64,000 bases of DNA from a virus (taxonomy: Duplodnaviria; Heunggongvirae; Uroviricota; Caudoviricetes). The stretch lies in the IMG/VR virus record IMGVR_UViG_3300003332_000015, positions 82,576 through 146,575 of that record; one strand, written 5' to 3'. Below the pieces are notes generated by a model that saw only the letters and a program-made list of their open reading frames with translations, made no database searches and was not told the DNA's origin. Positions 1,733 to 63,197 of the stretch are shown here, one piece after another (positions within the stretch are counted from its first letter, which is position 1; each line of letters opens with the position of its first letter). A program made the translations under genes and the position numbers.

Positions 1733-2192
1733 GAAAGACGAGTTTTTAGACACTGTTAGAGACTTTAAAAATAAAGAGCTTATTGATGGTGTATATAATA
1801 TTAAGGAAGCAAATCCATTAGATAGTTTAAAAGCAACTCTATTTAGTTTTTTTGAAACAAGACTTTCTAATTTACAACAAGAGGAAACTTTTAAGACTAC
1901 TATTAAAAATGCTTTACTAGATAAGATAGAACTAGGTGAAGTAAGTTTTAATCAGTTAATGCAATTGTATAAAGAAATTCAAATGGCTAATACTAAAGCA
2001 GTTGATTCAATATTAGATATTTTAAAACCAGCTCCAGCAGGAACAGTTTCTTTATTGGTTAGTTCTCCTAAGGTTGAAGAGGAACACGATGATCGTTTTA
2101 ATTCTTTAAATCCTGAAGAAAGAGATTTACTTACAAAATTATCAAGTTTTGTAAATAGAATTTCTGAAGAGAAAGTAGTCCCAGATGAATAA
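1722..2192 (+). CDS. hypothetical protein
   Basis: ORF overlapping the previous stop. Confidence 0.45.
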   Translation: MMGEKDEFLDTVRDFKNKELIDGVYNIKEANPLDSLKATLFSFFETRLSNLQQEETFKTTIKNALLDKIELGEVSFNQLMQLYKEIQMANTKAVDSILDILKPAPAGTVSLLVSSPKVEEEHDDRFNSLNPEERDLLTKLSSFVNRISEEKVVPDE

Positions 2193-2703
2193 AGGTAAAT
2201 TAACATTTGATAGTTTTGTTGAATTTTATGAAAAATATGGTAAGACACCTAATCAAATTAATAAACCTAAAAATAAGTTTAATGAACAACAATTACGTTC
2301 TAAGTATGTATCATATTCAAAAACATACGATAAAAAAATAGAAAAATTAAATAAAGTTGATGAAAGGATGGAAGAAGTTTTTTCCTTAGTTGATGTTCGT
2401 GATAATTTTTCTTGTCGTCTTTTAATTAAATTAAGTACACAAGAATTATTTTATATAAGTCGTACAGTAGGAAACTACTTTTTAAAACCTATAGATCATG
2501 CACACATCTTTCCTAGGAGCACTCATCCTCACTTAAAATATGATGTTGATAATATTGTTTTATTATCTCGATTATTCCATTCTCGATTAGATGAATTTAG
2601 AGATCCTATAACAGGAGAGTACATAGGAAAAGTTATGGCAGGAAAATGGTGGTGCTTCATATTGGGTAGTCCTCAATTCAATTCTTTAATTAAAAAAACT
2701 TAA
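2185..2703 (+). CDS. HNH-endonuclease-like protein
   Basis: C-terminal DHAHIFPRS...NIVLLSRLFH pattern resembles the HNH His-Asn-His motif. Confidence 0.45.
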   Translation: MNKGKLTFDSFVEFYEKYGKTPNQINKPKNKFNEQQLRSKYVSYSKTYDKKIEKLNKVDERMEEVFSLVDVRDNFSCRLLIKLSTQELFYISRTVGNYFLKPIDHAHIFPRSTHPHLKYDVDNIVLLSRLFHSRLDEFRDPITGEYIGKVMAGKWWCFILGSPQFNSLIKKT

Positions 2704-8929: not shown

Positions 8930-9751
8930 ATGAAGAGATATGGTTATGTCTATATAACAATTAATTCAGTTAATAATAAAAAATATATTGGACAACATAT
9001 CTCTTCTGAATTTGATTGTTTATATAGAGGTTCAGGTTCCCTCATAGTAAAAGCAATAAAAAAATATAGAAAAAGAAACTTTAAAGTAACACTTTTGGAA
9101 TGGGCGTACTCTTTAGAAGAGCTTAACTCTTTAGAACAAAAGTATATTAGAAAGTATAATGCAGTACAGTTAGACGAATTCTATAATTTAGAGTCAGGAG
9201 ATAGAAACTGTCCTTGTTCTGAAGAGAGAATTCAAAAATATAAGAATACTGTTTACAATACTATTGAAAGTAATGGGTTAACTATTGCCCAAAATATTGG
9301 TCTTAAAGTTTCTAAATCACAGAATGAAATTCAAGAAAATGGAAAAACTAAAGTACAAAATTCTGGTAAAAAGTTTTCTAAGGCAGTAACAACTACTATA
9401 CAAGAAAATGGTTTAACTATAGCACAGAATATAGGAAGAAAGTCAATAGCATCACGTAAACGAATAGAAGATAATGGTTTAACCGTTGTACAAAATACTA
9501 ATATTAAATCAGCAAAAGTTAAAAAAAATACAATATTACCTAATGGTTTAAGTATTGCTCAAGACGCATCTATAAGAGCAGCTAAAACAATGAAAAAAAT
9601 TGAGAGTAATGGAAAAACAATAAAACAAAATAGATTAGAAAAAAGACAGAAAACAATGGCTAAGATAGGTGAAGATGGATTAAATGGATTCCAAAGATCT
9701 TCACTTAGATGTAAAGAAACAAAACTAAAAAATAAGAGGAATAAAAAATGA
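8930..9751 (+). CDS. GIY-YIG homing endonuclease with NUMOD3-like repeats
   Basis: N-terminal YGYVYITIN...YIGQ (GIY-YIG) and repeated NGLTIAQNIG... units. Confidence 0.75.
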   Translation: MKRYGYVYITINSVNNKKYIGQHISSEFDCLYRGSGSLIVKAIKKYRKRNFKVTLLEWAYSLEELNSLEQKYIRKYNAVQLDEFYNLESGDRNCPCSEERIQKYKNTVYNTIESNGLTIAQNIGLKVSKSQNEIQENGKTKVQNSGKKFSKAVTTTIQENGLTIAQNIGRKSIASRKRIEDNGLTVVQNTNIKSAKVKKNTILPNGLSIAQDASIRAAKTMKKIESNGKTIKQNRLEKRQKTMAKIGEDGLNGFQRSSLRCKETKLKNKRNKK

Positions 9752-12429: not shown

Positions 12430-12435
12430 ATTTTA

Positions 12436-12541
12436 GCAGGTTAGTGTAAAGGTAACACGGGAGTCTCATTAATATTATATGGTGAGTAGTATTAATAAGC
12501 TCCTGCCGAAAGGCTTCAAGGTTCGAGTCCTTGGCCTGCTA
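12436..12541 (+). tRNA. type-II (long variable arm) tRNA-like gene with a ~27-nt insertion or extension in the anticodon loop
   Basis: Acceptor gcaggtt/ggcctgc, T-arm caagg-TTCGAGT-ccttg, variable-arm hairpin gccGAAAggc, anticodon stem ggagt/gctcc enclosing a 34-nt loop. Confidence 0.55.
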
Positions 12542-12797: not shown

Positions 12798-12913
12798 TGG
12801 GAAGTAGCTCAGTGGTAGAGCAGCGGAATAGTTTTACTTTTCGCTTATAGCATAAAAAGTTCCTAACACTTATTAGGATCCGCAGGTCGTTGGTTCGAAT
12901 CCAACTTTCCCAA
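12798..12913 (+). tRNA. type-I tRNA gene interrupted by a 44-nt insertion in the anticodon loop (identity undetermined)
   Basis: Canonical acceptor (tgggaag/tttccca), D-arm tagctcagtggtagagc, anticodon stem gcgga/tccgc, T-arm gttgg-TTCGAAT-ccaac. The loop is 51 nt and contains ACTTTTCGCTT-AT-AGCATAAAAAGTTCCTAA. Confidence 0.65.
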
Positions 12914-13281: not shown

Positions 13282-13371
13282 TGGGGGAGTAGCTCAGCGG
13301 GTAGAGTAGCTCTTGTAAGTCATGAAATTTTTGTGATGGAGTTGGTCGGTAGTTCAAATCTATCCTTCCCC
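13282..13371 (+). tRNA. type-I tRNA gene with a ~19-nt insertion in the anticodon loop
   Basis: Acceptor gggggag/cttcccc, D-arm tagctcagcgggtagagt, T-arm ggtag-TTCAAAT-ctatc. Loop ttgtaag...ttgtgat carries canonical heptamers at both ends (GUA at 5', GUG at 3'). Confidence 0.6.
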
Positions 13372-13373
13372 AC

Positions 13374-16614: not shown

Positions 16615-17274
16615 ATGAGTATAAAAATTAAAGAAGAATGGAAGAATCAAGAAGGATTATATATTTGTCCTGTATGTCAAAAAAGATATACTAAAAATGG
16701 AATAAGTACACACATTTGGAGAATGCACGGTGAAGGTAACAATCATAAACCTTTTAAAAATAAAATAACATGGAATAAAGGTTTAACTAAAGAAACCGAT
16801 GATCGTGTTAAACAACAAGGTATTAATTTTAGTAAAGCTTTTAAAGAAGGGAAAATAAAATCTAGAAAAGGAACAAAATTATCTAAAGAAATTTGTAAAA
16901 AAATTTCAATAGGTATGCAAAAAGTAGTTAGAGATAATCCAGAATCTTATAATTCTAAGAATGTATGTGGTAGAGTAAAAAATATAGATTATAATGGATT
17001 TACTCTTAAAGGTAATTGGGAACTTTTAGTTGCTAAGTTTTTAGATTCGAAAGGGATTAAATGGACTAATATAGTTGAACCTTTTACTTATATTTGGAAA
17101 GGTAGTAAACATTTATATTTTCCTGATTTTTATCTTTTAGAAAGAGATGAATATATTGAAGTTAAAGGATATGAAAGGCCTAAAGATGTAGAAAAATGGA
17201 AGGTAGTAAGTAATTTAAGAATTATTAAACTTAAAGAAATTAATAACATTAAAAACAATTTATATTGTATATAA
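16615..17274 (+). CDS. PD-(D/E)xK-nuclease-like protein with N-terminal C2H2-type zinc finger (possible homing endonuclease)
   Basis: CPVCQ...HIWRMH zinc finger; FPDFYLLERDEYIEVKG fits a PD-(D/E)xK motif. Confidence 0.45.
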   Translation: MSIKIKEEWKNQEGLYICPVCQKRYTKNGISTHIWRMHGEGNNHKPFKNKITWNKGLTKETDDRVKQQGINFSKAFKEGKIKSRKGTKLSKEICKKISIGMQKVVRDNPESYNSKNVCGRVKNIDYNGFTLKGNWELLVAKFLDSKGIKWTNIVEPFTYIWKGSKHLYFPDFYLLERDEYIEVKGYERPKDVEKWKVVSNLRIIKLKEINNIKNNLYCI

Positions 17275-17910: not shown

Positions 17911-17992
17911 GCCAGGGTGCTGAAATTGGTAGACAATCGGGTTTTAGAAACCCGAGCCTTCGGGTGTAAGGGTTCGAGTCCCTTTCCTGGTA
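17911..17992 (+). tRNA. tRNA-Leu (UAG), type II
   Basis: D-arm tgaaattggtagac, loop uuUAGaa, long variable arm, T-arm aaggg-TTCGAGT-ccctt. Confidence 0.85.
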
Positions 17993-18077
17993 CTACAAAA
18001 ATTTTAAAAGGAGTAATAGTATGAAGAATATAATTTATGGTCTTTAAGTAATTTAATTTATTAAGGAGACATATTTT

Positions 18078-21237: not shown

Positions 21238-21270
21238 CGGGACAGGATAAAAACTGTCTCGATTTTATTT
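21238..21270 (+). terminator. rho-independent terminator
   Basis: cgggacag-gataaaaa-ctgtctcg stem followed by attttattt. Confidence 0.5.
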
Positions 21271-21273
21271 CAT

Positions 21274-21347
21274 GCTTCTTTAACTCAGTTGGTTAGAGTG
21301 TCGGTTTTACATACCGGAAGTCCTTGGTTCAAATCCAAGAAGAAGTA
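21274..21347 (+). tRNA. tRNA-Val (UAC)
   Basis: Loop uuUACau, T-arm cttgg-TTCAAAT-ccaag. Confidence 0.85.
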
Positions 21348-21356
21348 TATTATTTT

Positions 21357-21477
21357 GGCCGAATGGCGGAACTGGTAGACGCGCCGGACTTAGAGCAGCT
21401 TCGGATTGGAAACAATGGAGCTCCTCTAAAATCCGGTTCCTGTAATGGGAGTGAGGGTTCGAGTCCCTCTTCGGCTA
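21357..21477 (+). tRNA. type-II tRNA-Leu-like gene with a ~36-nt insertion in the anticodon loop
   Basis: Acceptor ggccgaa/ttcggct, Leu-type D-arm ggaactggtagac, stem ccgga/tccgg around a 43-nt loop beginning cuUAGag (UAG at canonical position, A37), long variable arm, T-arm gaggg-TTCGAGT-ccctc. Confidence 0.6.
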
Positions 21478-21484
21478 ATATTAT

Positions 21485-21633
21485 GGCAGAATAAGCCTTA
21501 TTTTTGAGATGTTATAACGAAAAGTACTTAGTAGTTATAGTGTGTTAATTATACTGTACTGATATTGGAAAGATGATTTATTTGTTGCAACATTTAGAAA
21601 GTCTTAATGGAGGTTCGATTCCTTCTTCTGTCC
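21485..21633 (+). ncRNA. tRNA-like element: 7-bp acceptor-like stem + canonical T-arm with ~100-nt internal insertion
   Basis: ggcagaa...ttctgtc pairing; T-arm ggagg-TTCGATT-ccttc; flanks taagcctta and cttaatgg collinear with the 19326-19378 element. Confidence 0.4.
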
Positions 21634-22156: not shown

Positions 22157-22471
22157 ATGAAATATATAAAGAATGATTTAACAGAATTAAGAAAGAAAAT
22201 TAAGGAAACGAGAGAAATAAGTAAGACAGCAAAAGATATGTGGGATAGATCATCCGCACAATGTAAGTTACATAGTTTAAAACAACAATACAGAAATAAA
22301 CATGTATTGTATTGTTTATGTAAAGGTCGTACTTATAAAGAAATTGAAGCTAAAGTACGTGAAGATAATGAATTACATATTCCAAGTTTAAAAAGATTAT
22401 GTATAGGATATGAAACATTATCTTTTAATGAAATTAGTGAGGAACAGTTAGAAGGATTATTAAAATGGTAA
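22157..22471 (+). CDS. hypothetical protein
   Basis: 104-aa ORF. Confidence 0.45.
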   Translation: MKYIKNDLTELRKKIKETREISKTAKDMWDRSSAQCKLHSLKQQYRNKHVLYCLCKGRTYKEIEAKVREDNELHIPSLKRLCIGYETLSFNEISEEQLEGLLKW

Positions 22472-22833
22472 AGCAAGTAATAATTGTTAGAACTGATTTG
22501 GATATGCCTCTTGGAAGAATTTCGGCACAAGCAGCACATGCTTCAATTGCAGTTTTTCTTGATATGGGAAAATGGAACAAAGATAGTTTTACATTAAATA
22601 ATGTTCCAGAGGATATTCAGTATTGGATGAAAGAATCTTTTACTAAAGTAATATTAAAAGTTCATAGTGAAGAAGAATTAAATGCTTTAGCAGAATATGC
22701 TGAATTAACAAACTTACCTTACGCAATGATATCTGACGATATTAAAAAGAAAATGCACAAGATGGCTTTAGCCATTGGTCCTGCAACAAACGATAAATTA
22801 GATGTTATTACAAAAGGTTTAAAACTTTTATGA
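22465..22833 (+). CDS. peptidyl-tRNA hydrolase, PTH2 family
   Basis: N-terminal VIIVRTDLDMPLGRISAQAAHA matches the PTH2 signature. Confidence 0.65.
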   Translation: MVKQVIIVRTDLDMPLGRISAQAAHASIAVFLDMGKWNKDSFTLNNVPEDIQYWMKESFTKVILKVHSEEELNALAEYAELTNLPYAMISDDIKKKMHKMALAIGPATNDKLDVITKGLKLL

Positions 22834-22881
22834 TTTAGAAATTACATAGTGGTGAGGGTACCAAGTAACTTCACCACACTT

Positions 22882-22954
22882 GCCCTTATCGTATAATGGT
22901 TAGTACAACACCCTCTAAAAGTGTTTGGTTTGGGTTCGACTCCCAATAAGCGGC
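22882..22954 (+). tRNA. tRNA-like gene with anticodon CUA (putative amber suppressor); acceptor stem imperfect
   Basis: D-arm gtataatggttagtac, stem acacc/agtgt (C31·A39), loop cuCUAaa, T-arm ttggg-TTCGACT-cccaa. Acceptor gccctta vs taagcgg pairs at 5 of 7. Confidence 0.45.
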
Positions 22955-31020: not shown

Positions 31021-31053
31021 AACCGTCTTTCTTTATGTTAGACGGTTTTTTTA
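31021..31053 (+). terminator. rho-independent terminator after the transporter gene
   Basis: aaccgtct...agacggtt stem followed by T7. Confidence 0.7.
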
Positions 31054-31059
31054 TGATTT

Positions 31060-31113
31060 TTTTTAAATTCTTTTTAAAAAGTTTTAAAAAAATATTATTA
31101 TATAAGTGTAAGG
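31060..31113 (+). promoter_or_regulatory. phage promoter motif upstream of pnk
   Basis: tttaaaaagttttaaaaaaatattattatataagtgtaagg. Confidence 0.55.
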
Positions 31114-31121
31114 AGATTGGA

Positions 31122-32003
31122 ATGCAAACAGTTTATATAATGAAAGGACTTCCTGCATCAGGTAAGTCAACAAAAGCAAAACAGATGGTAGAAATGTCTA
31201 GTGGTAATCTTAAAAGAATTAATAAAGATGATTTAAGAGCTATGATGGATACTAAGTGGAGTAGAGAAAGAGAGAAACTTGTAATTGCTACAAGAGATTC
31301 TATTATTAGAACTTGGCTTTTTGAAGGGTTTGATGTAGTTGTTGATGATACAAATCTGGCAAAAAAACATATTACAAGAATTGAATCAATTGTGAACGAA
31401 TATAATAAAAAGTATAACAAAGAAGCAATAACAAAAATTATTGATTTCTCTTATACTGTAAGTGTTCACGAGTGTTTACGTCGAGATCGTAAAAGAGAAA
31501 ATCCTGTTGGTGATGATACTATATGGAGAATGTATAGTCAATTTATTGAATGGACAAAACCTGAAGTAAAAAAAGATAATAGTAAAGAAGATGTTTATCT
31601 TTGTGACTTAGATGGAACTATTGCTTTACATAATGGTAGAAATCCTTACTTATATGAAGAGTGTATACATGACTTACCTAATATGCCGGTTGTTAATGTT
31701 ATAAGGGCACTTATTAAATCTGATTTTAAAGTTGTATTTGTTACAGCAAGAGAAGATATTGGTAACTCAAAATCATTAACAATACAGTGGATTGAAGAAT
31801 ATATTGGTTTAAAAGATCCTATAGTTATTACAAGGGAATTAGGTGATAACAGAAATGATGGTATTACTAAAAGAGAAATGTATAACAAATATATTTTTCC
31901 TAAGTATAATGTTATTGGTGTATTTGATGATCGTAAAAGAGTTATTGATATGTGGCGTGATATGGACATCATGGTTTTTGATGTTGCAGGTCATACGTTT
32001 TAA
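31122..32003 (+). CDS. pnk: polynucleotide 5'-kinase/3'-phosphatase (T4 Pnk-like)
   Basis: N-terminal P-loop GLPASGKST plus C-terminal HAD motif LCDLDGTIA; start at ATG 31122 after AGGAG. Confidence 0.85.
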   Translation: MQTVYIMKGLPASGKSTKAKQMVEMSSGNLKRINKDDLRAMMDTKWSREREKLVIATRDSIIRTWLFEGFDVVVDDTNLAKKHITRIESIVNEYNKKYNKEAITKIIDFSYTVSVHECLRRDRKRENPVGDDTIWRMYSQFIEWTKPEVKKDNSKEDVYLCDLDGTIALHNGRNPYLYEECIHDLPNMPVVNVIRALIKSDFKVVFVTAREDIGNSKSLTIQWIEEYIGLKDPIVITRELGDNRNDGITKREMYNKYIFPKYNVIGVFDDRKRVIDMWRDMDIMVFDVAGHTF

Positions 32004-33022: not shown

Positions 33023-33544
33023 ATGCTTGATTATAATACTGTAGATGTTTTAAATGGTCAATTGATGAATAAAGTAATAAGTGAAAGACCTAATATACTT
33101 AATACTGAATGTCTTACTTATCCTATTAAAGGACAAGAAATACAAATTAAAGTTACACATGGTCAAATTACATTTTTTAACATGGAAGAATATGATAAGG
33201 ATATTTTAAAAGTTTCCAAATTATTTTCTGAAGATGCTTTTACTTTATTTCGTTATCTTCCAGTAGATGTTTTATACATTATTGGTTTTTATAAAGATAA
33301 TAAATATTATATAGTAGACATCGCCGGTGATAGTAAAAGACTTGGTTTTAGATATTATCTACCTACAATGATTAGTAAAGTTTTTAATATAATACATATT
33401 AAGAATCATGTTCCTATATCAGATAAACCTAAACTACTTTCTAATATTATTAACTCAGATAAATTTACTAACTGTATTATAAAACCATGTGACTATAACA
33501 TTATGTTAGATGAAGAAGAAAAATTAACATTTCGAAAGGGGTAG
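33023..33544 (+). CDS. hypothetical protein
   Basis: ORF with RBS GGAG. Confidence 0.45.
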   Translation: MLDYNTVDVLNGQLMNKVISERPNILNTECLTYPIKGQEIQIKVTHGQITFFNMEEYDKDILKVSKLFSEDAFTLFRYLPVDVLYIIGFYKDNKYYIVDIAGDSKRLGFRYYLPTMISKVFNIIHIKNHVPISDKPKLLSNIINSDKFTNCIIKPCDYNIMLDEEEKLTFRKG

Positions 33545-33547
33545 AAA

Positions 33548-34681
33548 ATGCTTAAGCTACAAGAGTTTATTAAAGAACATCCTCTTAATTTTCAAGAGTT
33601 TCTTTCAGAGAAACCTTATTGTATTAAGATGCAGGAAGACAAACATTTTATGTTATTTAAATATTCCCAAATCGATAGTGATTTCACTAATCAGCTTGTA
33701 AGAGAATGTCGAGGTATTATACTTGATAAAAATGATTGGTCTATTGCTTGTCACCCCTTTCACAAGTTTGGTAATTATGGTGAATCGTATGTTCCTGAAA
33801 TTGATTGGGATTCAGCTAAAGTACAGGAAAAACTTGATGGTTCTTTAATTAAATGTTGGTATAATAAATATGAAGATAATTTTCAATGGTCCACTAATGG
33901 AACTATTTATGCAAGCTCAGCAAATTTACAAGTACCATTAAATGGATTTGACAATTTTGATCAACTCATAAGTTATACATTAATGTCTATAGGGAAGACA
34001 ACAGTTACATCTATGATGATGAAAGAGTATACTTATTTATTTGAACTATGTACTCCTCATAATAGAGTAGTAGTACCACATAAAGATTTTGAATTATATC
34101 ATTTATCAACTAAACATAATGAAACAGGAAAAGAAATAATTCAAATATTAATGATGCCTGTCCCTAAAGTTTACTCTTTATTAACATTGGAAGAATGTAT
34201 TGAAACAGCAAATGAGTTACCTTTTAATGAAGAAGGTTATGTAGTAGTTGATGATAAATTAAATAGAGTTAAAATTAAGTCACCAGCTTATTTAGCTATA
34301 CACCATTTAAAAGGTGAAGGTATTGTTTCTGAAAAAAGAGCATTAGATTTAATAAGAATGAACGAGCATAAAGAATTTCTTTACTACTATGATGAGTATA
34401 CAGATTTTTTTGATGATTTAGAAAAAAGATATAATCAATTTATGGAAATTATAGACTATGATTTAGATGAAGCAAAGAGTTTTATACATACAAAAAGAAA
34501 AGTATTTGCACATTGGGCAAATACTTATTCTGTATTACCTTCTGCATGTTTTCAGTTTTATGATGGTAAAATTAAAACAGCAAAAGAGGCTATAACTAAT
34601 ATGACTAGTGAAAGGATGCTACCTCATTTAAAGAATGTACTCATTTTAAATATGGAAGGTGAGATTGGTAAAGGGTTATAA
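33548..34681 (+). CDS. rnl: RNA ligase (T4 Rnl1-like)
   Basis: Motif I EKLDGSLIK (KxDGS) at ~residue 95; co-located with pnk. Confidence 0.6.
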   Translation: MLKLQEFIKEHPLNFQEFLSEKPYCIKMQEDKHFMLFKYSQIDSDFTNQLVRECRGIILDKNDWSIACHPFHKFGNYGESYVPEIDWDSAKVQEKLDGSLIKCWYNKYEDNFQWSTNGTIYASSANLQVPLNGFDNFDQLISYTLMSIGKTTVTSMMMKEYTYLFELCTPHNRVVVPHKDFELYHLSTKHNETGKEIIQILMMPVPKVYSLLTLEECIETANELPFNEEGYVVVDDKLNRVKIKSPAYLAIHHLKGEGIVSEKRALDLIRMNEHKEFLYYYDEYTDFFDDLEKRYNQFMEIIDYDLDEAKSFIHTKRKVFAHWANTYSVLPSACFQFYDGKIKTAKEAITNMTSERMLPHLKNVLILNMEGEIGKGL

Positions 34682-35719: not shown

Positions 35720-36385
35720 ATGAATTGTCCAATATGTGATAGTGGTTTAGAGAAAGGTGAAATGTTAAGATTTGAAACTTTATGTGATCATATTGAAGAC
35801 CCTAATAATGAAAGAGGATTACCTTTAAGACCTACTTATATATGTAAAAAAAGGACTTGTCCTCTTTCAGGTCAGATGCTTTTTTGGGATGAGTTTGGTG
35901 AAGTTTATATTAATAAATATGAAATATATATGGAACTTGAAAAACAGTTTAAGCATATAAGTAGTCAAAATATTTTAGAAGCACAAAACTCACCTGGAAG
36001 AAAATGGGCAATGGAAGGAACATACAGTGGTACTAAGTATAAGTTGTTTAGAATAGGAAATTATAAATGGGAAATACATAGACAACATACTTGTAATGAA
36101 AAAGGTCAAGTTGTAAAGTATAAATTTTTTATACAAACTTTTAAACATGATAGTCCTGGTTGGATTTATTATTCTGGTTTTTGGCATATACTTATACTCT
36201 GTATTAAACAGTTTAATAGAACTTTAAAAAATTGGAAAGAAGATCATAATGATCATGAGAAAAGAGAATTACTTTCAAACTTTAAAGATCTAACCGAAAG
36301 AGATAAAGAAGATAATTATAGAATAGTTTTTCATTGGTATGTAAATACATTTTATGAAGAACTAAAAGAGGAACTTTCAAAATGA
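35720..36385 (+). CDS. zinc-ribbon protein (hypothetical)
   Basis: Start MNCPICDSG...CDH after GGAG; track ORF begins further upstream. Confidence 0.45.
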   Translation: MNCPICDSGLEKGEMLRFETLCDHIEDPNNERGLPLRPTYICKKRTCPLSGQMLFWDEFGEVYINKYEIYMELEKQFKHISSQNILEAQNSPGRKWAMEGTYSGTKYKLFRIGNYKWEIHRQHTCNEKGQVVKYKFFIQTFKHDSPGWIYYSGFWHILILCIKQFNRTLKNWKEDHNDHEKRELLSNFKDLTERDKEDNYRIVFHWYVNTFYEELKEELSK

Positions 36386-37182
36386 TGACTAATATAATTG
36401 AGAAGGACAGTTGGTTGCCACCAATTGAGGATATCAATAACTCCGGTATTTTTCTAACTTCTCAATTTCTTTCTACTAATATAATACACAGACTTGGCAA
36501 AGTCTTAAAAGTTAAAACACTTCAGGAGTACAAAATGGAAAAGTATACATACCCTAATTTCCCTAAAGATTTAATAAAATCTCAATTACATTTAGATCGA
36601 TATATAAATTTTATTGATTCAAGACCAATAAGAATAAAAAAGTCAAAAGATCTTTATACAGAAAACCACCATAAAGTTCCAAGAGCTTTAAGAGGTTCAA
36701 ATTTAAAAGAAAATATGGTTTTACTTACTGGAAGAGAATACTTCATAGCTCATTTAATTCTATGGAAGGCTTATGGTGGTAAGATGGCTAATGCTTTTTG
36801 GATGATGAGTATTAGCCAAAACTATAATAAATTAACCTCAAAACAATATGCTTCTATAAAATATATAGTATCAGAAAAAATGCGAAAAATGAATCTAAAG
36901 AGAGATCATTCTCCAATGTTGGGAAGAAAACATTCAAAAGAAACTATTAAAAAATTATCTGAGTCTCACATTGGACAATCTCCAGGAAATAAAGGTCTAA
37001 AGTGTTCACAAGAGACTAAAAATAAAATATCAATTGCTCAAACAGGAAAAAAGTATTCAGAAGAAACTAAATTAAAAAAATCTAAATCAATGACTGGTAA
37101 AAAATGGACAGAGAAACAAAAGGAAGCACAAAGTAAAAGATTTAAAATTTGGTACGAAAAGAGGAAATTAAATGAACAATAA
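36382..37182 (+). CDS. HNH homing endonuclease with NUMOD3-like repeats
   Basis: ENHHKVPRAL...NMVLLTGREYFIAH HNH core followed by repeated GxKHSxETxxK units. Confidence 0.65.
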   Translation: MMTNIIEKDSWLPPIEDINNSGIFLTSQFLSTNIIHRLGKVLKVKTLQEYKMEKYTYPNFPKDLIKSQLHLDRYINFIDSRPIRIKKSKDLYTENHHKVPRALRGSNLKENMVLLTGREYFIAHLILWKAYGGKMANAFWMMSISQNYNKLTSKQYASIKYIVSEKMRKMNLKRDHSPMLGRKHSKETIKKLSESHIGQSPGNKGLKCSQETKNKISIAQTGKKYSEETKLKKSKSMTGKKWTEKQKEAQSKRFKIWYEKRKLNEQ

Positions 37183-41797: not shown

Positions 41798-42388
41798 ATG
41801 AAAATTACACAAGAGATGACAGAACATTTTAATACTAGAACTAACTTACATATTAATTTAGTTAAGAAATGGTATGAAAAAATATATCAATATTACAAGA
41901 ATACATTGTATAAAGATGGTACTTTAAAACGTATTCATATAAATAATCATGATTTCTGTAAATTTGAGTTACCTGAATATACACCTTATGTTTATCTTAC
42001 ATGGAAATATTATTGCAAAGATAATAATATAGAGTTAAACTTATCTGAAGAAATAGAAAATTCTATACATAAAGCAACATTACACCATATACAAAATAAT
42101 GCACATCATCCTGAATATTGGGATTTAGAATTTGATAATAATAAATTAAGTAAAAAGGATAGAGACGAAATACCTGAAGTAATGGTTAATGCAACAGAGA
42201 TGTCATTAAGTCATTTAGCAGAAATGCTAGCTGACTGGCTTGCAATGTCTGAGGAAAAAGAAACAGATGTTATTGAATGGGCTGATAAAAATGTTAATAA
42301 AAGATGGAAGTTTACTCAGGGACAAGTGGACTTTATATATAAAACTCTAAACAAAGTAAGTAAGGGACCAACACTATGGTCAAGATAA
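41798..42388 (+). CDS. hypothetical protein (His-rich, possible HD-like)
   Basis: ATLHHIQNNAHHPEY; weak. Confidence 0.4.
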   Translation: MKITQEMTEHFNTRTNLHINLVKKWYEKIYQYYKNTLYKDGTLKRIHINNHDFCKFELPEYTPYVYLTWKYYCKDNNIELNLSEEIENSIHKATLHHIQNNAHHPEYWDLEFDNNKLSKKDRDEIPEVMVNATEMSLSHLAEMLADWLAMSEEKETDVIEWADKNVNKRWKFTQGQVDFIYKTLNKVSKGPTLWSR

Positions 42389-42924
42389 TATTTTTAGACA
42401 TTGATGGTGTTCTTAATTCAGAAGAGTTTCATAAATCTGAAATAGGAGATCATATAAGAATGGTTGCTCATGCAAACTATATTAATAAAGAGTCACAAGG
42501 GAATGTATTATCCGATAAAGACATTTATATTGACCATATTGACCCAAGAGCGGTAAAACATTTACAGGAGATTATAGATAAAACAGATGCTAAAATAGTT
42601 TTATCTTCTACTTGGAGAAAAGGTCGAACATATACAGCATTACTTGAAATATTAAAAGAGTTAAATTTTACAGGTAAAATAATAGATGTAACAGGTACAG
42701 GGTGTAATGAATGTTACAGAGGAAATGAAATATATACTTGGATTAAAAATAATGAAAAACTTCTTGGTTATAATTATTCAGATTATAAAAACTATGTAAT
42801 TATTGATGGTGATGGTGATATGCTATGGTGGCAAAGAAATAATTTTATAAAAACAAGTTGGAAAACTGGTTTGGAAAGGAAACATATAGTTCAGTCAATT
42901 AAGATTCTTAATCAAGGAGACTAA
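42376..42924 (+). CDS. HAD-superfamily hydrolase-like protein
   Basis: N-terminal IIFLDIDGVLNS (DxDG motif I). Confidence 0.5.
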   Translation: MVKIIFLDIDGVLNSEEFHKSEIGDHIRMVAHANYINKESQGNVLSDKDIYIDHIDPRAVKHLQEIIDKTDAKIVLSSTWRKGRTYTALLEILKELNFTGKIIDVTGTGCNECYRGNEIYTWIKNNEKLLGYNYSDYKNYVIIDGDGDMLWWQRNNFIKTSWKTGLERKHIVQSIKILNQGD

Positions 42925-43892: not shown

Positions 43893-44140
43893 TGACAGAA
43901 ATAACTTGGGAAGAATTTAGGAAATCAGGATTACTTTTATTAGTAAATCAATTCTTACATATTTTTGGATTAGCGATTGTAGTTTATATGGAGTATGACA
44001 AAGTTATTCGTACATACCCCGCTAGAGTGAAATTCAGAGGATTTGCTGGGAAATCTTTAGATAAGGCTTATATAAATATTTCTAAATATATGAAAGAACA
44101 TGGTAAAGAACTGTATGATGAGGTGATAGAAAATGAGTGA
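43889..44140 (+). CDS. small membrane protein
   Basis: 83 aa with a hydrophobic segment. Confidence 0.35.
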   Translation: MMTEITWEEFRKSGLLLLVNQFLHIFGLAIVVYMEYDKVIRTYPARVKFRGFAGKSLDKAYINISKYMKEHGKELYDEVIENE

Positions 44141-45269
44141 TAGAAAATTAGCAAGCATTGAAAAAATAATATCTTTAGAACCAATTAAAGGTAAAGATAG
44201 GATTGAATTGGCAACAATATTAGGTTGGCACTGTATAGTAGGTAAAGAGGAATTTAAAGTAGGAGATTATGTTGTTTATTGTCAATATGACACCTTACTT
44301 CCAATCAAACCTGAGTTTGAGTTTCTTAGAAATAGGTGTTATAGTAAGAAATTTGATGGAATGAGAATTCGGAATATGAAAATGGCTGGAGTTTATTCGG
44401 AAGGAATTGTATTTAAAGTTAAAGATATTAAAGATTTAGATGCTTTAAGCGAAAAACAGTTATATGAAGGAAAAGATGTATCTGAAATCATAGGTGTACA
44501 AAAATATGACATCGAATCTCTAGAGGAAGTGGAAAAAGCTAAGGTAAGTAGGAATCCTATAATTAAGTATCTAATGAGATATAAATGGTTTAGAAAATGG
44601 ATAGGTAATAGAAAACCAAAATATGGATATCCTGAAGGTGTTCATAAAGCTAATGAAACAAATATTCAAGTAATATTTAATCGTTTAAAGGATAAAGATT
44701 TACTTTATTATAAATCCGAAAAACTTGAAGGTCAAGCTTGTACTTATCTTGTAACGAATAAAGGTAGATTTATGGTGTTTTCCCATAATGTAGGACTACC
44801 CAAATCAAATAATAATTGGTGGAGAATAGCTGAAAAGTTCAATATTGAAAGAAAAATTAAAAACTTTATGAAACTATATGATGTAAATGAAATGTATATA
44901 GGTGGTGAGATTATAGGACCAGGAATTCAAAGAAATATTTATGGTTTAAATGACTTAGATATGTATATTTATAATATTATATCTTTAGATAATAATAGAG
45001 TAGAAAATAAAATATTTGGTTTAAATGATATGAGATTATTCTGTAATGTTACAGGATTAAAAATGGTTCCTGTACTTGAAGAAAATGTTAAATTACTTGA
45101 ATCATCAGACGCTATACTAGAGGATTGTGAAGGTGAATCTATTTTTAATTCTTCTGTTAAAGGTTTAAGAGAAGGAATTATCTGGCGATCAAATTGTGGT
45201 AAATATGGTTTTAAAGCAAAATCTAAAAAATATCAAGATTTGTGGAATAAAAAGGAGAAAACAGAATGA
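44133..45269 (+). CDS. ATP-dependent polynucleotide ligase-like protein (KxDGxR motif)
   Basis: SKKFDGMRIR (KxDGxR) and SEGIVFK (EGxVxK-like); family assignment uncertain. Confidence 0.4.
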   Translation: MSDRKLASIEKIISLEPIKGKDRIELATILGWHCIVGKEEFKVGDYVVYCQYDTLLPIKPEFEFLRNRCYSKKFDGMRIRNMKMAGVYSEGIVFKVKDIKDLDALSEKQLYEGKDVSEIIGVQKYDIESLEEVEKAKVSRNPIIKYLMRYKWFRKWIGNRKPKYGYPEGVHKANETNIQVIFNRLKDKDLLYYKSEKLEGQACTYLVTNKGRFMVFSHNVGLPKSNNNWWRIAEKFNIERKIKNFMKLYDVNEMYIGGEIIGPGIQRNIYGLNDLDMYIYNIISLDNNRVENKIFGLNDMRLFCNVTGLKMVPVLEENVKLLESSDAILEDCEGESIFNSSVKGLREGIIWRSNCGKYGFKAKSKKYQDLWNKKEKTE

Positions 45270-45862: not shown

Positions 45863-46186
45863 ATGAAAGAACTACTATTTTCAATTACCAAAAAAGACTT
45901 TACTGTAACCTGGTTCTCAGGGACTGGGGCAGGAGGTCAACATAGAAATAAGCACCAAAACTGTTGCAGAATTAAACATAATGAATCAGGTGTTATCGGA
46001 ACAGGGCAGTCTAATCGAACAAGAATAGCAAATCAAAAAGAAGCTTTCAACAGTTTAACAAAGAATTTTAAATTTAAGTTATGGCTTAATAAGAAAATAT
46101 TTGAAATAGACTTAGATGTACAAGCAATTCAGGACAGAGTTGACAAGCAAATGCAACCAGAAAACATAAAAATCGAATATTTTTAA
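45863..46186 (+). CDS. GGQ-domain peptidyl-tRNA hydrolase (ArfB/RF-1-domain-like)
   Basis: FSGTGAGGQHRNKHQN...IGTGQSNRTRIANQKEA matches the release-factor/ArfB GGQ catalytic domain. Confidence 0.7.
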   Translation: MKELLFSITKKDFTVTWFSGTGAGGQHRNKHQNCCRIKHNESGVIGTGQSNRTRIANQKEAFNSLTKNFKFKLWLNKKIFEIDLDVQAIQDRVDKQMQPENIKIEYF

Positions 46187-61106: not shown

Positions 61107-61475
61107 ATGAGAGTATCAAGTAAAGATTTAAAAGAATTTAAAGAAGATCCTCCAGGTATTAACTATGACAGGATGCAAGTATTATACTTGGAAAAGAAGT
61201 TAACAAACTTCGTAAAAATCATACAAGCTCGTGAAGGCTCTATGGCATCACTCTATGTATGGAAACAACTAATGAAGTTCTACGCAAAGCTAGTACGTCA
61301 AATTCAGGACATAGAAGAGGAAATACTTTCTGAGCATACGCCTACTACAAAACCTTTTCTATTCCCTAAGGATAATGAAAAGATTATTATCACAAAGGAT
61401 AAAGAGATTGTATTTATAGACTCTTTAACAGAACGTGAATGGAGAAGAGCTTACAGGGAAAATGTTAAGGAGTAA
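61107..61475 (+). CDS. hypothetical protein
   Basis: 122 aa. Confidence 0.45.
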   Translation: MRVSSKDLKEFKEDPPGINYDRMQVLYLEKKLTNFVKIIQAREGSMASLYVWKQLMKFYAKLVRQIQDIEEEILSEHTPTTKPFLFPKDNEKIIITKDKEIVFIDSLTEREWRRAYRENVKE

Positions 61476-61673
61476 ATGATGTGGGGAATTAGTTATGTTA
61501 TTAAAGGTTTTTTTGGTTTATTGTTTGCTTTTTCAGCAATAATAATTTTTACTGTAGGTCCTATTATTGTTTCTATAGTATTACAAAATCCATTTTATCT
61601 TTTTACTTATTTAATATCCTGGATTCCAACATTACTCTTTTGGTTAATTGCATACCTTATAATGGAGTTTTGA
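61476..61673 (+). CDS. small membrane protein (two TM helices)
   Basis: Highly hydrophobic 65 aa. Confidence 0.4.
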   Translation: MMWGISYVIKGFFGLLFAFSAIIIFTVGPIIVSIVLQNPFYLFTYLISWIPTLLFWLIAYLIMEF

Positions 61674-61674
61674 A

Positions 61675-61869
61675 ATGAAGATTATACAGGCTAATGAAAT
61701 AAATACTAAAGAAAAGCTTCTTATAGAATTACCCTTAATTTCTTTAGATTATTTAGACCTTGCTATTTTTGAAGCAGCTCTTTATAATTATTCACATAGT
61801 TCTTGTCTTGTTACAAAAAAAATAGAAAGAATAAATAAAATATTAAATCAATTAAGTGAGTTAACATAA
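61675..61869 (+). CDS. small hypothetical protein
   Basis: 64 aa. Confidence 0.3.
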   Translation: MKIIQANEINTKEKLLIELPLISLDYLDLAIFEAALYNYSHSSCLVTKKIERINKILNQLSELT

Positions 61870-61964
61870 TGGAAATAGAATTTGTTAAATGGATGGTAGG
61901 ATATGCGTATGGATTTGAAGTAAAAAATGATAATTCTATTACTATACCAATAAAAAATACATGA

Positions 61965-62189
61965 TTGGAATGGAAATATAAACATTTTGAAACGGATAAT
62001 TGGAAGCAAGCATACTATCCATTACTTTTACAAAGAACTATAGAAGGAATAAATACTTTAAAAGATTTTGAAATAATTCAAACAAGATCTAATGTTGTTG
62101 TCTATTCAGAATATCCTGTACAGGAATTTGAGATAGAACCTAAAAATGAGGATGAAGCTAAAGAACAAGCTTTAAAATATATTTATTAA
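61965..62189 (+). CDS. small hypothetical protein
   Basis: 74 aa. Confidence 0.3.
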   Translation: MEWKYKHFETDNWKQAYYPLLLQRTIEGINTLKDFEIIQTRSNVVVYSEYPVQEFEIEPKNEDEAKEQALKYIY

Positions 62190-62984
62190 ATGTGTAAAGG
62201 AGCCTAAAAATGGATGGATGGAAATGCGGTTCTAAATTTGGAAAATTTATAAAAAATTTAAACTCTAAAATATATTGGTCATCTTACAAATTACGCAAAA
62301 GAAAATATTATAATCAGTATATTAAAGATACACATCAAAGATTCCAATTTATTCAAGAATTTATTAATTACTGGCTTTAGGGCTCATAGTAAACTAAATT
62401 TTGTTAAATGTGATTCTTGTATGGATGCAATTGGTATTGATTACCAATCTGAAAAGCATGGATGGAACTATGAAGGATATCATTATTGGGCATGTCCTGA
62501 CTGTTTAAAAAAAAAGAAAAATAATGTTTGATGATATACCTGAAGATAAAGAAGAAAGTTATCCATGGCCTAATTGTGAAAATGGAAATGTTACATTAGA
62601 TGAATCTAGTGGAATATGGAGATGTGATATTTGTGAGTTTGGAGAACTTAATTAATAAATGGAGTAAAATATGCTTGAAAAAATAAAAGAAAAAATAAGA
62701 ATTAAAAGACTTGTTAATCAAAAGTGTGTTACCTATAATTATATTAAACATTTTGTCGGACCCGAACTACTATCAGAAATGGTTATGGTTATGGATTTGT
62801 ATCAGATGAGTTTATTTATGACAATGGATATTTAGAATTAGGTTTTGGTAAAATAAGAAGTGGTTATGGAGATTAGGGTGGAGGATTCTCACACTCACTC
62901 ACTTAACCTCTAAAAGTTATTATTGATAAAGATTTTAATATTATTGAATGTAAAACTGACTCTTTCTATAATGTTAAACACCAA

Positions 62985-63197
62985 GTGGAACATGAAGCTA
63001 AACGAATTATAGAAATGTTAGGTTGTAAACTCGATTTAAATAATGATTTTTTATACTGTATAATAGTTCGAACATTTACAATACAAAAATTAAAATCACC
63101 TTTATCTATAAATTTTATTGATACAGATGATATAGATGAAGTTCTAAGAATACTTGGGTTTGCTGAACTTAATTTTGTAAGAGTAAAGAATGATTAA
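62985..63197 (+). CDS. small hypothetical protein
   Basis: 70 aa. Confidence 0.3.
   Translation: MEHEAKRIIEMLGCKLDLNNDFLYCIIVRTFTIQKLKSPLSINFIDTDDIDEVLRILGFAELNFVRVKND

What the first reader, a model, noticed from the sequence alone, without database searches (positions are those of the whole stretch)
21357..21477. tRNA-Leu-like gene with a ~36-nt insert exactly at the canonical 37/38 intron position
Acceptor ggccgaa/ttcggct, Leu-type D-arm, long variable arm and T-arm are all canonical. The anticodon stem ccgga/tccgg encloses 43 nt that begin cuUAGa (U33, anticodon UAG, A37) and then gcagcttcggattggaaacaatggagctcctctaa before the final a. A 37/38 insertion is the archaeal/eukaryotic intron position. 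The insert contains a self-complementary ggagct/agctcc core that could present a bulge-helix-bulge-like structure.
Basis: seen in the sequence. Interest (0 to 1): 0.75.

Follow-up and report, generated by a model that had tools for sequence, protein, structure and literature searches.

The report
Phage tRNA-Leu gene split by hairpin
A bacteriophage leucine-tRNA gene, like at least three other tRNA genes in the same phage, has a short hairpin-forming insert in its anticodon loop that matches no known tRNA intron type; it would have to be cut out and resealed, possibly by the RNA-repair enzymes the phage encodes.

Summary
The feature is real. Window 21357-21477 is a complete long-variable-arm tRNA-Leu gene (Rfam tRNA, 47 bits) with 43 nt in the anticodon loop instead of 7. 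An independent assembly has the identical sequence. The 36-nt insert plus the flanking loop bases fold into a ~22-bp rod capped by GAAA.

- No bulge-helix-bulge can be drawn at any splice choice that restores a 7-nt loop.
- Position 37/38 with anticodon UAG is only one of two possible readings.

Removing 21392-21427 (+/-1) gives CUUAAAA, tRNA-Leu(UAA). I favour this (~0.7) for four reasons:
- TTA is 58% of Leu codons.
- An intact Leu-UAG gene already exists.
- A syntenic relative has Leu(UAA) at this place.
- A second interrupted tRNA (12435-12541) has intron-less homologues that place its insert inside the anticodon.

At least four tRNA genes here carry hairpin inserts of 17-44 nt, and relatives carry them too. 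The host is bacterial. I found no EndA, RtcB or group I core, but the phage encodes Pnkp, Rnl1, a second RNA ligase and other repair proteins.

Best reading (0.5): hairpin intervening sequences excised by an unidentified nuclease and resealed by phage repair enzymes. The only precedent, the 'enigmatic' Lak-phage tRNA introns, is longer and built differently.

The parts
21357..21477 (+). Interrupted class II tRNA-Leu gene (121 nt; 85 nt after removal of the insert)
   Evidence: Rfam RF00005 47 bits, full-length match. ARAGORN -i calls tRNA-Leu. Cloverleaf MFE -50.3 kcal/mol, z -3.0. Identical in L017.
21357..21391 (+). 5' exon under the favoured Leu(UAA) reading (ends at U34; the boundary is equivalent at 21390, 21391 or 21392)
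   Evidence: The spliced sequence is called tRNA-Leu(taa) by ARAGORN.
21392..21427 (+). 36-nt intervening hairpin AGAG-C-AGCUUC-GG-AUUG-GAAA-CAAU-GGAGCU-C-CUCU.
   Evidence: MFE pair table: first and last nt pair with each other, and the flanking exon bases U34 and A35 also pair. Arm z -4.5. Single copy in the window. No Rfam ribozyme or intron family at E<=10.
21428..21477 (+). 3' exon (AAAA-UCCGG..., variable arm, T arm, acceptor, A73)
21273..21348 (+). tRNA-Val(UAC) 8 nt upstream on the same strand, probably in the same transcript
   Evidence: A terminator-like hairpin lies at 21238-21261, just before it.
12435..12541 (+). Second interrupted tRNA: class II body, anticodon CAU, 27-nt hairpin insert (12469-12495, +/-1)
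   Evidence: Fold z -5.2. Intron-less homologues L187:2908-2993 and L188:730-815 have loop CUCAUAA, which fixes the insert at 34/35 to 36/37 and excludes 37/38.
12798..12913 (+). Third interrupted tRNA (class I, 51-nt anticodon loop, insert about 44 nt)
   Evidence: Rfam tRNA 56.2 bits. Fold.
13283..13372 (+). Fourth interrupted tRNA (class I, 24-nt loop; 17-19-nt hairpin; ARAGORN -i reads Tyr-GUA with the intron after position 37)
   Evidence: Rfam tRNA 48 bits..
17911..17993 (+). Uninterrupted tRNA-Leu(UAG), loop UUUAGAA
31035..32003 (+). T4-type polynucleotide kinase-phosphatase (Pnkp), an RNA end-healing enzyme
   Evidence: PF25109 HAD_PNKP 9e-35 plus AAA_33. phrog_505 4e-68.
33548..34681 (+). 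T4 Rnl1-type RNA ligase, whose family seals breaks in tRNA anticodon loops
   Evidence: PF09511 RNA_lig_T4_1 1.4e-13. phrog_562 1.8e-50.
41798..42924 (+). DUF5662 protein and a 'Swiss Army Knife' RNA-repair HAD phosphatase
   Evidence: PF18907 1.7e-22 and PF18143 4.4e-26.
44133..45269 (+). Second RNA ligase (PHA02142 OB fold plus PF09414 RNA_ligase)

Best explanation
The locus is a bacteriophage tRNA-Leu gene, most likely isoacceptor UAA, whose anticodon loop is interrupted by a 36-nt palindromic intervening sequence. In the primary transcript the insert and the loop bases zip up into a ~22-bp rod capped by a GAAA tetraloop, so the anticodon is buried and the RNA cannot decode. To work as a tRNA, the hairpin must be cut out on both strands and the halves rejoined within the anticodon loop.

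The excision is not by a BHB endonuclease and not by self-splicing. I infer a protein nuclease that recognises the hairpin or rod. A staggered RNase III-type cut at 21392|21393 and 21428|21429 would give exactly CUUA + AAA. Sealing would be done by the phage's own Rnl1, with Pnkp healing the ends if the nuclease leaves a cyclic phosphate and a 5'-OH.

Shown: the gene, the insert, its fold, its siblings in the same phage, and the presence of the repair genes. Inferred: that excision happens at all, the identity of the nuclease, and the use of Rnl1/Pnkp.
For: 1. The tRNA body is intact: full-length Rfam match at 47 bits, higher than the phage's uninterrupted Leu-UAG at 41.5 bits.
2. It is not a one-off. 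Four tRNA genes in the window have inserts confined to the anticodon loop. Relatives L180 and L187 also have tRNA-like genes with expanded anticodon arms.
3. For 12435-12541, two intron-less homologues show a normal CUCAUAA loop. All stems are kept through compensatory changes, so the insert sits in an otherwise conserved decoder.
4. L180:4464-4574 and L187:6-122 share an insert hairpin at the same place. Three of its base pairs are changed on both sides, and the acceptor stem also changed compensatorily. This indicates selection on the insert's RNA structure after it was acquired.
5. Need for the tRNA: TTA is 755 of 1311 Leu codons and ATA is 624 Ile codons. The uninterrupted tRNA set has Leu-UAG but no Leu-UAA. 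Splicing at 21392-21427 yields a sequence ARAGORN calls tRNA-Leu(taa).
6. A syntenic relative (L194) has an uninterrupted Leu(UAA) with loop CUUAAAA after the homologous upstream ORF. The phage tRNA L195/L196 is 88% identical overall, shares the G1.U72 pair, and is Leu(UAA) with loop CUUAAAA.
7. Geometry: in both the validated 12435 insert and this one, the insert is a closed hairpin flanked by a 2-nt repeat. One equivalent description leaves 2-nt 3' overhangs, as RNase III does. Bacterial 23S rRNA intervening sequences are excised in that way (PMC8708148).
8. Sealing machinery is encoded 10-24 kb downstream: Pnkp, Rnl1, a second RNA ligase, a SAK HAD phosphatase and DUF5662. From established knowledge, T4 Pnkp and Rnl1 repair tRNA-Lys cut in the anticodon loop, and yeast Trl1 uses the same chemistry for tRNA splicing.
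Against: - There are no RNA data, so neither transcription nor excision is shown.
- No nuclease was identified. I found no EndA, RtcB or RNase III among 60 ORFs scanned.
- Pnkp and Rnl1 are common in phages whose tRNAs are uninterrupted (T4), so their presence is permissive, not specific.
- The RNase III-type geometry fits only two of the four inserts. The 13283 hairpin has 8 bp, and 12798 is a branched structure.
- The insert sits at different loop positions in different tRNAs, so no single ruler from the tRNA body can set the cuts.
- The L180/L187 tRNA-likes have no obvious 7-nt mature loop, which hints that some of these RNAs may act unspliced.
- UAA versus UAG is not settled. Among the first 120 bacterial and archaeal tRNAs with the same anticodon stem, CUUAGAA (7) is as frequent as CUUAAAA (3), and body similarity does not discriminate.
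Confidence: 0.5

Rival explanations
1. Functional but never spliced. This would be a tRNA-shaped RNA with a rod in place of the anticodon loop. It could still be 3'-processed and probably leucylated, because bacterial LeuRS does not read the anticodon (established knowledge). It would serve a non-decoding role, such as a decoy or sponge for tRNA-targeting nucleases or tRNA-binding enzymes, or a donor of Leu outside the ribosome.
For: The L180/L187 tRNA-likes keep an expanded anticodon arm through compensatory change but offer no clean 7-nt loop. Insert positions differ among the tRNAs. No splicing nuclease was found. A73 and the Leu-type body are intact.
Against: This tRNA and 12435 have uninterrupted homologues with ordinary anticodon loops, and removing the insert restores exactly such a loop. 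The phage otherwise lacks the isoacceptor for its commonest Leu codon. The four inserts share no sequence, which argues against a common binding partner.
Confidence: 0.2
2. A recently inactivated gene. A small palindromic DNA element inserted with a 2-bp TA/AT target duplication into the anticodon-loop DNA, and the gene is now a pseudogene.
For: The insert is a near-perfect palindrome flanked by a 2-nt repeat: TA here, AT in 12435 and 12798. Only an identical second copy of this phage is available, so selection acting after the insertion cannot be measured for this gene.
Against: All four inserts lie in the 7-nt anticodon loop of genes about 75 nt long, and none lies elsewhere. All four cloverleafs are flawless. 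The inserts are single copy and unrelated to each other within 64 kb. A homologous insert in two diverged relatives shows compensatory pairs. A 2-nt repeat is weak evidence in 28% GC DNA.
Confidence: 0.17
3. An archaeal/eukaryal-type intron at 37/38 in tRNA-Leu(UAG), presented as a bulge-helix-bulge and cut by a splicing endonuclease.
For: The 37/38 cut restores CUUAGAA, the same loop type as the phage's own Leu-UAG, UUUAGAA. CUUAGAA occurs on this stem in bacteria. A heal-and-seal ligase set is present.
Against: At 37/38 the central BHB helix would be CUUA/UCUA, with 1 of 4 pairs. The only 3-4-3 motif present leaves a 16-nt loop and is no better than chance. No EndA domain was found. The host is bacterial: an 82-nt long-arm tRNA-Tyr, RecA, M23 and SLT, and tmRNA in relatives. 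The comparatively validated sibling intron is not at 37/38.
Confidence: 0.05
4. A self-splicing or self-cleaving RNA: a group I remnant at the classical U34/A35 site of tRNA-Leu(UAA), or a small ribozyme.
For: The favoured insertion site coincides, within +/-1 nt, with the site of the cyanobacterial/plastid tRNA-Leu(UAA) group I intron (established knowledge).
Against: 36 nt cannot hold a group I core. No Intron_gpI or ribozyme family matched, even at E<=10. None of the equivalent 3' ends is a G. The fold is a plain rod.
Confidence: 0.02

Closest known systems
'Enigmatic' tRNA introns of Lak megaphages (Devoto et al. 2019, PMC6784885)
   Same: These are bacteriophage tRNA genes in an AT-rich genome with a suppressor tRNA. 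The insert is in the anticodon loop, presence and absence vary among relatives, and no mechanism is known. A class I Tyr(GUA) tRNA is interrupted there, as 13283-13372 may be here.
   Different: Lak introns are 79-114 nt. From their Table S6 sequences, each carries a T-arm/acceptor minihelix or a whole tRNA-like element. The inserts here are 17-44 nt plain hairpins with no T-loop motif, and in the one validated case the insert lies inside the anticodon.
Archaeal/eukaryal protein-spliced tRNA introns (BHB motif, EndA/Sen, RtcB or Trl1)
   Same: A short intron in the anticodon loop that needs a protein nuclease plus a ligase. The phage Pnkp and Rnl1 are the homologues of the yeast Trl1 healing and sealing domains (established knowledge).
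   Different: No BHB, no EndA, a bacterial host, and junctions buried in a continuous helix rather than in 3-nt bulges.
Group I intron of cyanobacterial/plastid tRNA-Leu(UAA)
   Same: The same isoacceptor and, within +/-1 nt, the same insertion site (U34/A35).
   Different: That intron is a ~250-nt ribozyme ending in G. This insert is a 36-nt hairpin with no Rfam match.
Intervening sequences of bacterial 23S rRNA excised by RNase III (PMC8708148)
   Same: An extra stem-loop grafted onto a hairpin loop of a stable RNA. The junctions lie in duplex, and a 2-nt staggered cut is geometrically possible.
   Different: rRNA IVSs are 100-200 nt and are not religated, since the rRNA works in pieces. A tRNA cut in its anticodon loop would need ligation.
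T4 tRNA repair (PrrC cut of tRNA-Lys, healed by Pnkp and sealed by Rnl1)
   Same: The same two enzyme families are encoded here. The nick to be sealed would lie next to the wobble base, which is Rnl1's natural substrate (established knowledge).
   Different: In T4 the break is host-inflicted damage at a single site. Here two cuts would remove a gene-encoded insert.

Membership tests
tRNA (Rfam RF00005), class II Leu type | Cloverleaf with conserved U8, A14, G18G19, T-loop UUCGA and a 7-bp acceptor, scoring above the gathering score | tested here: met
   47.0 bits against 29, model 1-71.
tRNA (Rfam RF00005), class II Leu type | Leu identity elements: A73, long variable arm, 3-bp D stem | tested here: met
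   Read. ARAGORN calls Leu for both spliced forms.
tRNA (Rfam RF00005), class II Leu type | 7-nt anticodon loop | tested here: not met
   The gene has a 43-nt loop; the feature is met only after removal of 36 nt.
BHB (archaeal/eukaryal) tRNA intron | Two 3-nt bulges separated by a 4-bp helix, with the splice sites in the bulges | tested here: not met
   1-2 of 4 central pairs at the cut choices that restore a U33/purine-37 loop (k=2-6). k=7 gives 4/4 central pairs but 0/2 flanking h1 pairs and a CUUAGAG loop. The only 3-4-3 motif gives a 16-nt loop and is at chance level.
BHB (archaeal/eukaryal) tRNA intron | Splicing endonuclease (EndA/Sen) available | tested here: not met
   No PF01974/PF02778 in 60 ORFs of the window. 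Host markers are bacterial. The rest of the ~147-kb genome was not seen.
BHB (archaeal/eukaryal) tRNA intron | Canonical position 37/38 | tested here: inconclusive
   37/38 is one of five equivalent or alternative cuts. The validated sibling intron is not at 37/38.
Group I intron in tRNA-Leu(UAA) | Insertion between U34 and A35 of Leu(UAA) | tested here: inconclusive
   Compatible if the UAA reading is right. UAA is favoured but not proven.
Group I intron in tRNA-Leu(UAA) | Catalytic core P3-P9 with a terminal G | tested here: not met
   The insert is 36 nt, there is no Intron_gpI match at E<=10, and the 3' end is C, U or A.
Lak-phage tRNA introns | Insert in the anticodon loop of a phage-encoded tRNA that is absent from some homologues | tested here: met
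   Lak description.
Lak-phage tRNA introns | 79-114 nt with an embedded T-arm minihelix or tRNA-like element | tested here: not met
   This insert is 36 nt and a plain GAAA-capped hairpin.
RNase III-excised intervening sequence | Junctions within a ~2-turn duplex, with cuts staggered by 2 nt (3' overhang) | tested here: met
   A ~22-bp rod. The cut pair 21392|21393 and 21428|21429 gives a 2-nt 3' overhang and the correct product. The same holds for 12435. This is geometric only.
RNase III-excised intervening sequence | Actual cleavage by RNase III | not testable with these tools
   Needs an enzyme assay or RNA end mapping.
Miniature palindromic insertion element (MITE-like) | Terminal inverted repeats plus a target-site duplication | tested here: inconclusive
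   There is a palindrome with a 2-nt TA repeat, but a 2-nt repeat is expected by chance fairly often.
Miniature palindromic insertion element (MITE-like) | Multiple related copies in the genome | tested here: not met
   Each insert matches only itself in 64 kb; the next-best matches are <=14 nt (14 nt at 93% identity; longest exact match 12 nt).

The most novel reading that the evidence does not exclude
Bacteriophages run a protein-only tRNA splicing pathway that does not use the BHB motif. Short hairpin intervening sequences placed at variable positions in the anticodon loop bury the anticodon in a duplex. A duplex- or hairpin-recognising nuclease (host RNase III or an unrecognised phage enzyme) cuts them out, and the T4-type Pnkp/Rnl1 pair rejoins the exons. 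Those 'repair' enzymes would then have a gene-encoded splicing substrate. The phage's tRNAs for its commonest codons (TTA, possibly ATA) would become splicing-dependent, and shielded from host anticodon nucleases until matured.
Probability: 0.35. Interest if true: 0.85.

Novelty: new variant of a known kind. Interest (0 to 1): 0.62.

Why it matters
Outside self-splicing group I introns, bacteria and their viruses are not known to splice tRNAs. The only report of phage tRNA introns (Lak megaphages, 2019) left them unexplained, and I found no later mechanistic work in the searchable literature.

This phage offers a compact, testable case:
- four short inserts, one with its boundaries fixed by intron-less homologues;
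- a simple rod-like precursor;
- a full set of RNA end-healing and sealing genes in the same 64 kb.

If the inserts are removed, that would define a third route to tRNA splicing and give a physiological substrate to phage RNA ligases. It would also matter for annotation, because default bacterial tRNA finders miss these genes, so phage tRNA repertoires and codon-supply arguments are biased. If the inserts are not removed, the phage makes a family of tRNA-shaped RNAs with blocked anticodons, which would also be new.

Tried and rejected
- A gapped exon pattern (CCGGACTTAGA N20-50 ATCCGGT) in viral contigs returned 13 hits. All were chance matches in coding DNA and none was a tRNA.
- The 5'-exon 18-mer in viral contigs gave 115 hits. 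Most were cyanophage or marine contigs carrying only the 5' part of a tRNA-Leu(UAA), and none had an insert.
- Anchoring on the SbcD-like and 656-aa proteins brought 47 loci from gut phages. They had no tRNAs nearby and were not informative.
- Megablast and tblastn against cultured and deposited phages found no close relative.
- The ORF just downstream (90 aa) and the 173-aa ORF between Pnkp and Rnl1 have no homologues in 1.8-5.8 billion proteins, so they are not a conserved splicing factor.
- A single-sequence AlphaFold model of the 332-aa ORF between Pnkp and Rnl1 failed (pLDDT 34) and was discarded. Pfam, NCBIfam and PDB searches also found nothing for it; only PHROG 4400, of unknown function, matched.
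- 3'-exon patterns for the 12798 and 13283 tRNAs gave no hits, so their mature anticodons remain unresolved.
- I first took nearest-neighbour body similarity as proof of UAA. A wider set showed that Leu bodies with UAG, UAA and CAA are about equally close, so this argument was downgraded.
- MAFFT misplaced the gap in the 12435 alignment. I replaced it with an alignment anchored on CUCAU...AAGC.
- A scan for stop-codon recoding in this window found no clear in-frame TAG or TGA use.

Full report
**What is at 21357-21477**

The sequence is a tRNA. Rfam's tRNA model matches it end to end at 47.0 bits (gathering score 29; E 6.7e-7 for the whole window), with one large insertion inside the anticodon loop. 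Read directly:
- acceptor GGCCGAA/UUCGGCU with a G1.U72 pair, and discriminator A73;
- a Leu-type D arm;
- anticodon stem CCGGA/UCCGG;
- a long variable arm;
- T arm GAGGG-UUCGAGU-CCCUC.

The loop holds 43 nt, so the insert is 36 nt. Default ARAGORN skips the gene, but ARAGORN with introns allowed reports a tRNA-Leu. A contig assembled independently from run SRR3223410 is identical over the whole region, so this is not an assembly artefact.

**How the precursor folds**

The minimum-energy structure keeps the cloverleaf and turns the anticodon arm into a rod. The order is: the 5-6-bp stem, a 1x2 internal loop, UUAGAG/CUCUAA, a C.C mismatch, AGCUUC/GGAGCU, a GG bulge, and AUUG/CAAU capped by GAAA. 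The arm alone folds at -25.5 kcal/mol against -12.8 for shuffles (z -4.5; none of 200 shuffles as good).

**The genome around it**

The window has 28% GC, and nearly all ORFs lie on the + strand. It carries a tRNA array from 11.9 to 23.8 kb: 23 genes by default ARAGORN and 26 with introns allowed.

It is a bacterial virus:
- tRNA-Tyr is 82 nt long, consistent with the bacterial long-variable-arm type;
- it encodes a bacterial RecA, an M23 peptidase and an SLT lytic transglycosylase;
- its two nearest relatives (PTH2 66-67% identical) encode tmRNA.

No close relative exists among deposited phages. The longest contig carrying its proteins is 146,575 nt.

**It is one of a set**

Rfam also finds tRNAs with oversized anticodon loops at 12798-12913 (56.2 bits, 51-nt loop) and 13283-13372 (48 bits, 24-nt loop). 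A fourth, 12435-12541, folds as a perfect class II cloverleaf with a 34-nt loop region (z -5.2). Each insert forms its own hairpin. The inserts share no sequence with each other or with anything else in the window. Relatives L180 and L187 also carry tRNA-like genes with expanded anticodon arms.

**A comparatively validated sibling**

Contigs L187 and L188 are linked to PTH2 genes about 70% identical to the window's. They carry uninterrupted homologues of 12435-12541, with the same class II body and loop CUCAUAA. Anchored alignment shows that the window gene equals these plus 27 nt:

CUCAU[UAAUAUUAUAUGGUGAGUAGUAUUAAU]AA

The insert can be slid by +/-1 because of an AU repeat. It therefore lies at 34/35, 35/36 or 36/37, inside or next to the anticodon. 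It cannot be at 37/38, which would put U at position 37. All stems of the three genes are kept through compensatory changes.

**Selection on an insert**

L180:4464-4574 and L187:6-122 are homologous class II tRNA-likes with an identical D arm and a conserved UAACAGCAAUC. Both contain a hairpin at the same place in the anticodon arm: GUAUCU...AGAUAC versus AAGUCUU...AAGACUU. The three outer pairs differ on both sides, and the acceptor stems also changed compensatorily. So in this lineage the insert's structure has been maintained after it was acquired.

**Is there a BHB?**

I defined the canonical geometry as follows: a 4-bp central helix, a 3-nt bulge 3' of it on each strand, and the cut after the second bulge base. 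I then tested every cut pair that restores a 7-nt loop. The validated 12435 intron also fails. The BHB reading is rejected.

No tRNA-intron endonuclease, RtcB or RNase III domain appears in 60 ORFs scanned. No group I or ribozyme family matches, even at E<=10.

**Which anticodon?**

Five cut choices restore a 7-nt loop. Three are equivalent and give CUUAAAA (UAA); their intron coordinates are 21391-21426, 21392-21427 or 21393-21428.

For UAA:
- TTA is 755 of 1311 Leu codons. The uninterrupted set already has Leu-UAG (17911-17993) but no Leu-UAA.
- In relative L194, an uninterrupted Leu(UAA) with loop CUUAAAA follows the homologue (53% identical) of the ORF upstream of this gene.
- Phage tRNA L195/L196 is 88% identical overall, shares the unusual G1.U72 pair, and has loop CUUAAAA.
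- Only the UAA reading reproduces the geometry of the validated sibling: a closed hairpin whose first and last bases pair, flanked by exon bases that pair with each other, with a 2-nt repeat.

For UAG:
- The phage's own Leu-UAG has loop UUUAGAA.
- Among the first 120 genomic tRNAs with this exact anticodon stem, CUUAGAA occurs 7 times and CUUAAAA 3 times; most are CUUAGGA.
- Overall body similarity does not separate UAG, UAA and CAA types.

I put UAA at about 0.7.

**How it might be matured**

The junctions lie inside a duplex, not in loops or bulges. One of the three equivalent descriptions, cuts at 21392|21393 and 21428|21429, releases the hairpin with a 2-nt 3' overhang and leaves CUUA-3' and 5'-AAA. 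That is the RNase III cut pattern, and the same holds for 12435. Bacterial 23S rRNA intervening sequences are extra stems removed in this way, but they are not religated (PMC8708148).

The window encodes what religation would need:
- a T4-type Pnkp (31035-32003);
- an Rnl1-type ligase (33548-34681);
- a second RNA ligase (44133-45269);
- a SAK-type HAD phosphatase and DUF5662 (41798-42924).

From established knowledge, T4 Pnkp and Rnl1 reseal tRNA-Lys cut next to the wobble base, and yeast Trl1 uses homologous domains for tRNA splicing. The chain 'nuclease, then Rnl1' is inference. The RNase III geometry does not fit the 8-bp hairpin of 13283 or the branched 12798 insert. The repair genes are also common in phages without interrupted tRNAs.

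**Rivals**

- The RNAs may act unspliced, as tRNA-shaped molecules with a blocked anticodon. The L180/L187 RNAs, which have no obvious 7-nt loop, point that way.
- This particular gene may be a fresh casualty of a palindromic insertion with a TA duplication. Against that: all four inserts sit in the 7-nt loop, the cloverleafs are flawless, the inserts are single copy, and a homologous insert is under structural selection.

**Comparison with what is known**

The only precedent I found is Devoto et al. 2019, who reported 'enigmatic introns' in Lak megaphage tRNAs and stated that introns in phage tRNAs had not been reported before. Their Table S6 sequences are 79-114 nt, and each contains a T-arm minihelix or a tRNA-like element. 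The inserts here are 17-44 nt plain hairpins. Later papers only note that Lak tRNAs need eukaryote-mode prediction. Searches for a mechanism returned nothing relevant.

I therefore class this as a new variant of a known but unexplained kind.

Noticed in passing
window 12435-12541; L187:2908-2993; L188:730-815: These are class II (long variable arm) tRNAs with anticodon CAU and a weak or mismatched 1-72 pair (A-U, A x A, C x U). This body/anticodon combination is unusual. If C34 were lysidinylated it would read ATA, the phage's second commonest Ile codon, and its amino-acid identity is unclear.
   Followed up: partly
window 12798-12913 and 13283-13372: Two further tRNAs have 51-nt and 24-nt anticodon loops, and their mature anticodons could not be fixed. 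12798 would give AUUAGGA (UAG on a class I body). 13283 would give UUGUAAG (GUA, like the interrupted Lak Tyr tRNA) or UGUAAGU (UAA with G33).
   Followed up: partly
window 21485-21633: Directly after the tRNA-Leu there is an acceptor-like pairing GGCAGAA/UUCUGUC and a good T arm (GGAGG-UUCGAUU-CCUUC) enclosing about 100 AT-rich nt. Support is weak: tRNA-Sec model 23 bits, fold z -1.5. It may be a heavily interrupted or degenerate tRNA, or a minihelix.
   Followed up: partly
window 22465-22954; L187-L191, L319-L323: An amber-suppressor-type tRNA (anticodon CUA) sits immediately downstream of the PTH2 peptidyl-tRNA hydrolase gene in the window and in most PTH2-linked relatives fetched (not in L180). 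The window itself shows no clear in-frame TAG use.
   Followed up: partly
window 33023-34681: The orphan 173-aa ORF ends in TAG and is in frame with the Rnl1 gene that starts one codon later. Read-through by the phage's CUA tRNA would make a 552-aa N-terminally extended ligase.
   Followed up: no
L180:4464-4574, L180:6754-6834, L187:6-122: Related phages carry tRNA-like genes with a shared D arm (UUAGUGUAAUGG-A-CAC). Two of them (L180:4464-4574 and L187:6-122) have a long variable arm and an anticodon arm made of a 6x6 internal loop plus hairpin, with 3' strand UAACAG conserved; L180:6754-6834 has a short variable loop and a 15-nt anticodon loop. None has an obvious 7-nt anticodon loop.
   Followed up: partly
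L014:15484-15771; L180:11397-11690: Phage-encoded tmRNA genes (Rfam 72.9 and 66.5 bits) lie at the end of the tRNA arrays of the two nearest relatives.
   Followed up: no
window 45863-46186: A 107-aa ORF with an RF-1 domain resembles an ArfB-type ribosome-rescue peptidyl-tRNA hydrolase. It adds to PTH2, the suppressor tRNA and the RNA-repair genes as a translation-maintenance toolkit.
   Followed up: no
window 2185-2703, 8930-9751, 16615-17274, 36382-37182: Four homing-endonuclease-like ORFs (weak sub-threshold HNH and GIY-YIG matches; zinc finger plus a weak sub-threshold T7 endonuclease I-like nuclease match, supported by PHROG 'endonuclease' 2e-29; NUMOD3 above threshold) lie in and around the tRNA array. 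Inserts in tRNA genes could also serve as immunity against tRNA-gene-targeting homing nucleases.
   Followed up: no
L193:483-554: In a relative, a class I tRNA has loop CGUAGAG: G at position 33 and anticodon UAG.
   Followed up: no
window 61475-63437: About 2 kb has no ORF of 100 aa or more in the standard code, even with TAG or TGA read through, and no Rfam match.
   Followed up: no
L020-L131 (IMG/VR marine contigs): Dozens of marine viral contigs carry only the first ~40 nt of a cyanobacterial-type tRNA-Leu(UAA), up to CUUAAAA, followed by unrelated conserved sequence. This is probably the known tRNA-Leu attachment site of P-SSP7-like cyanophages.
   Followed up: no
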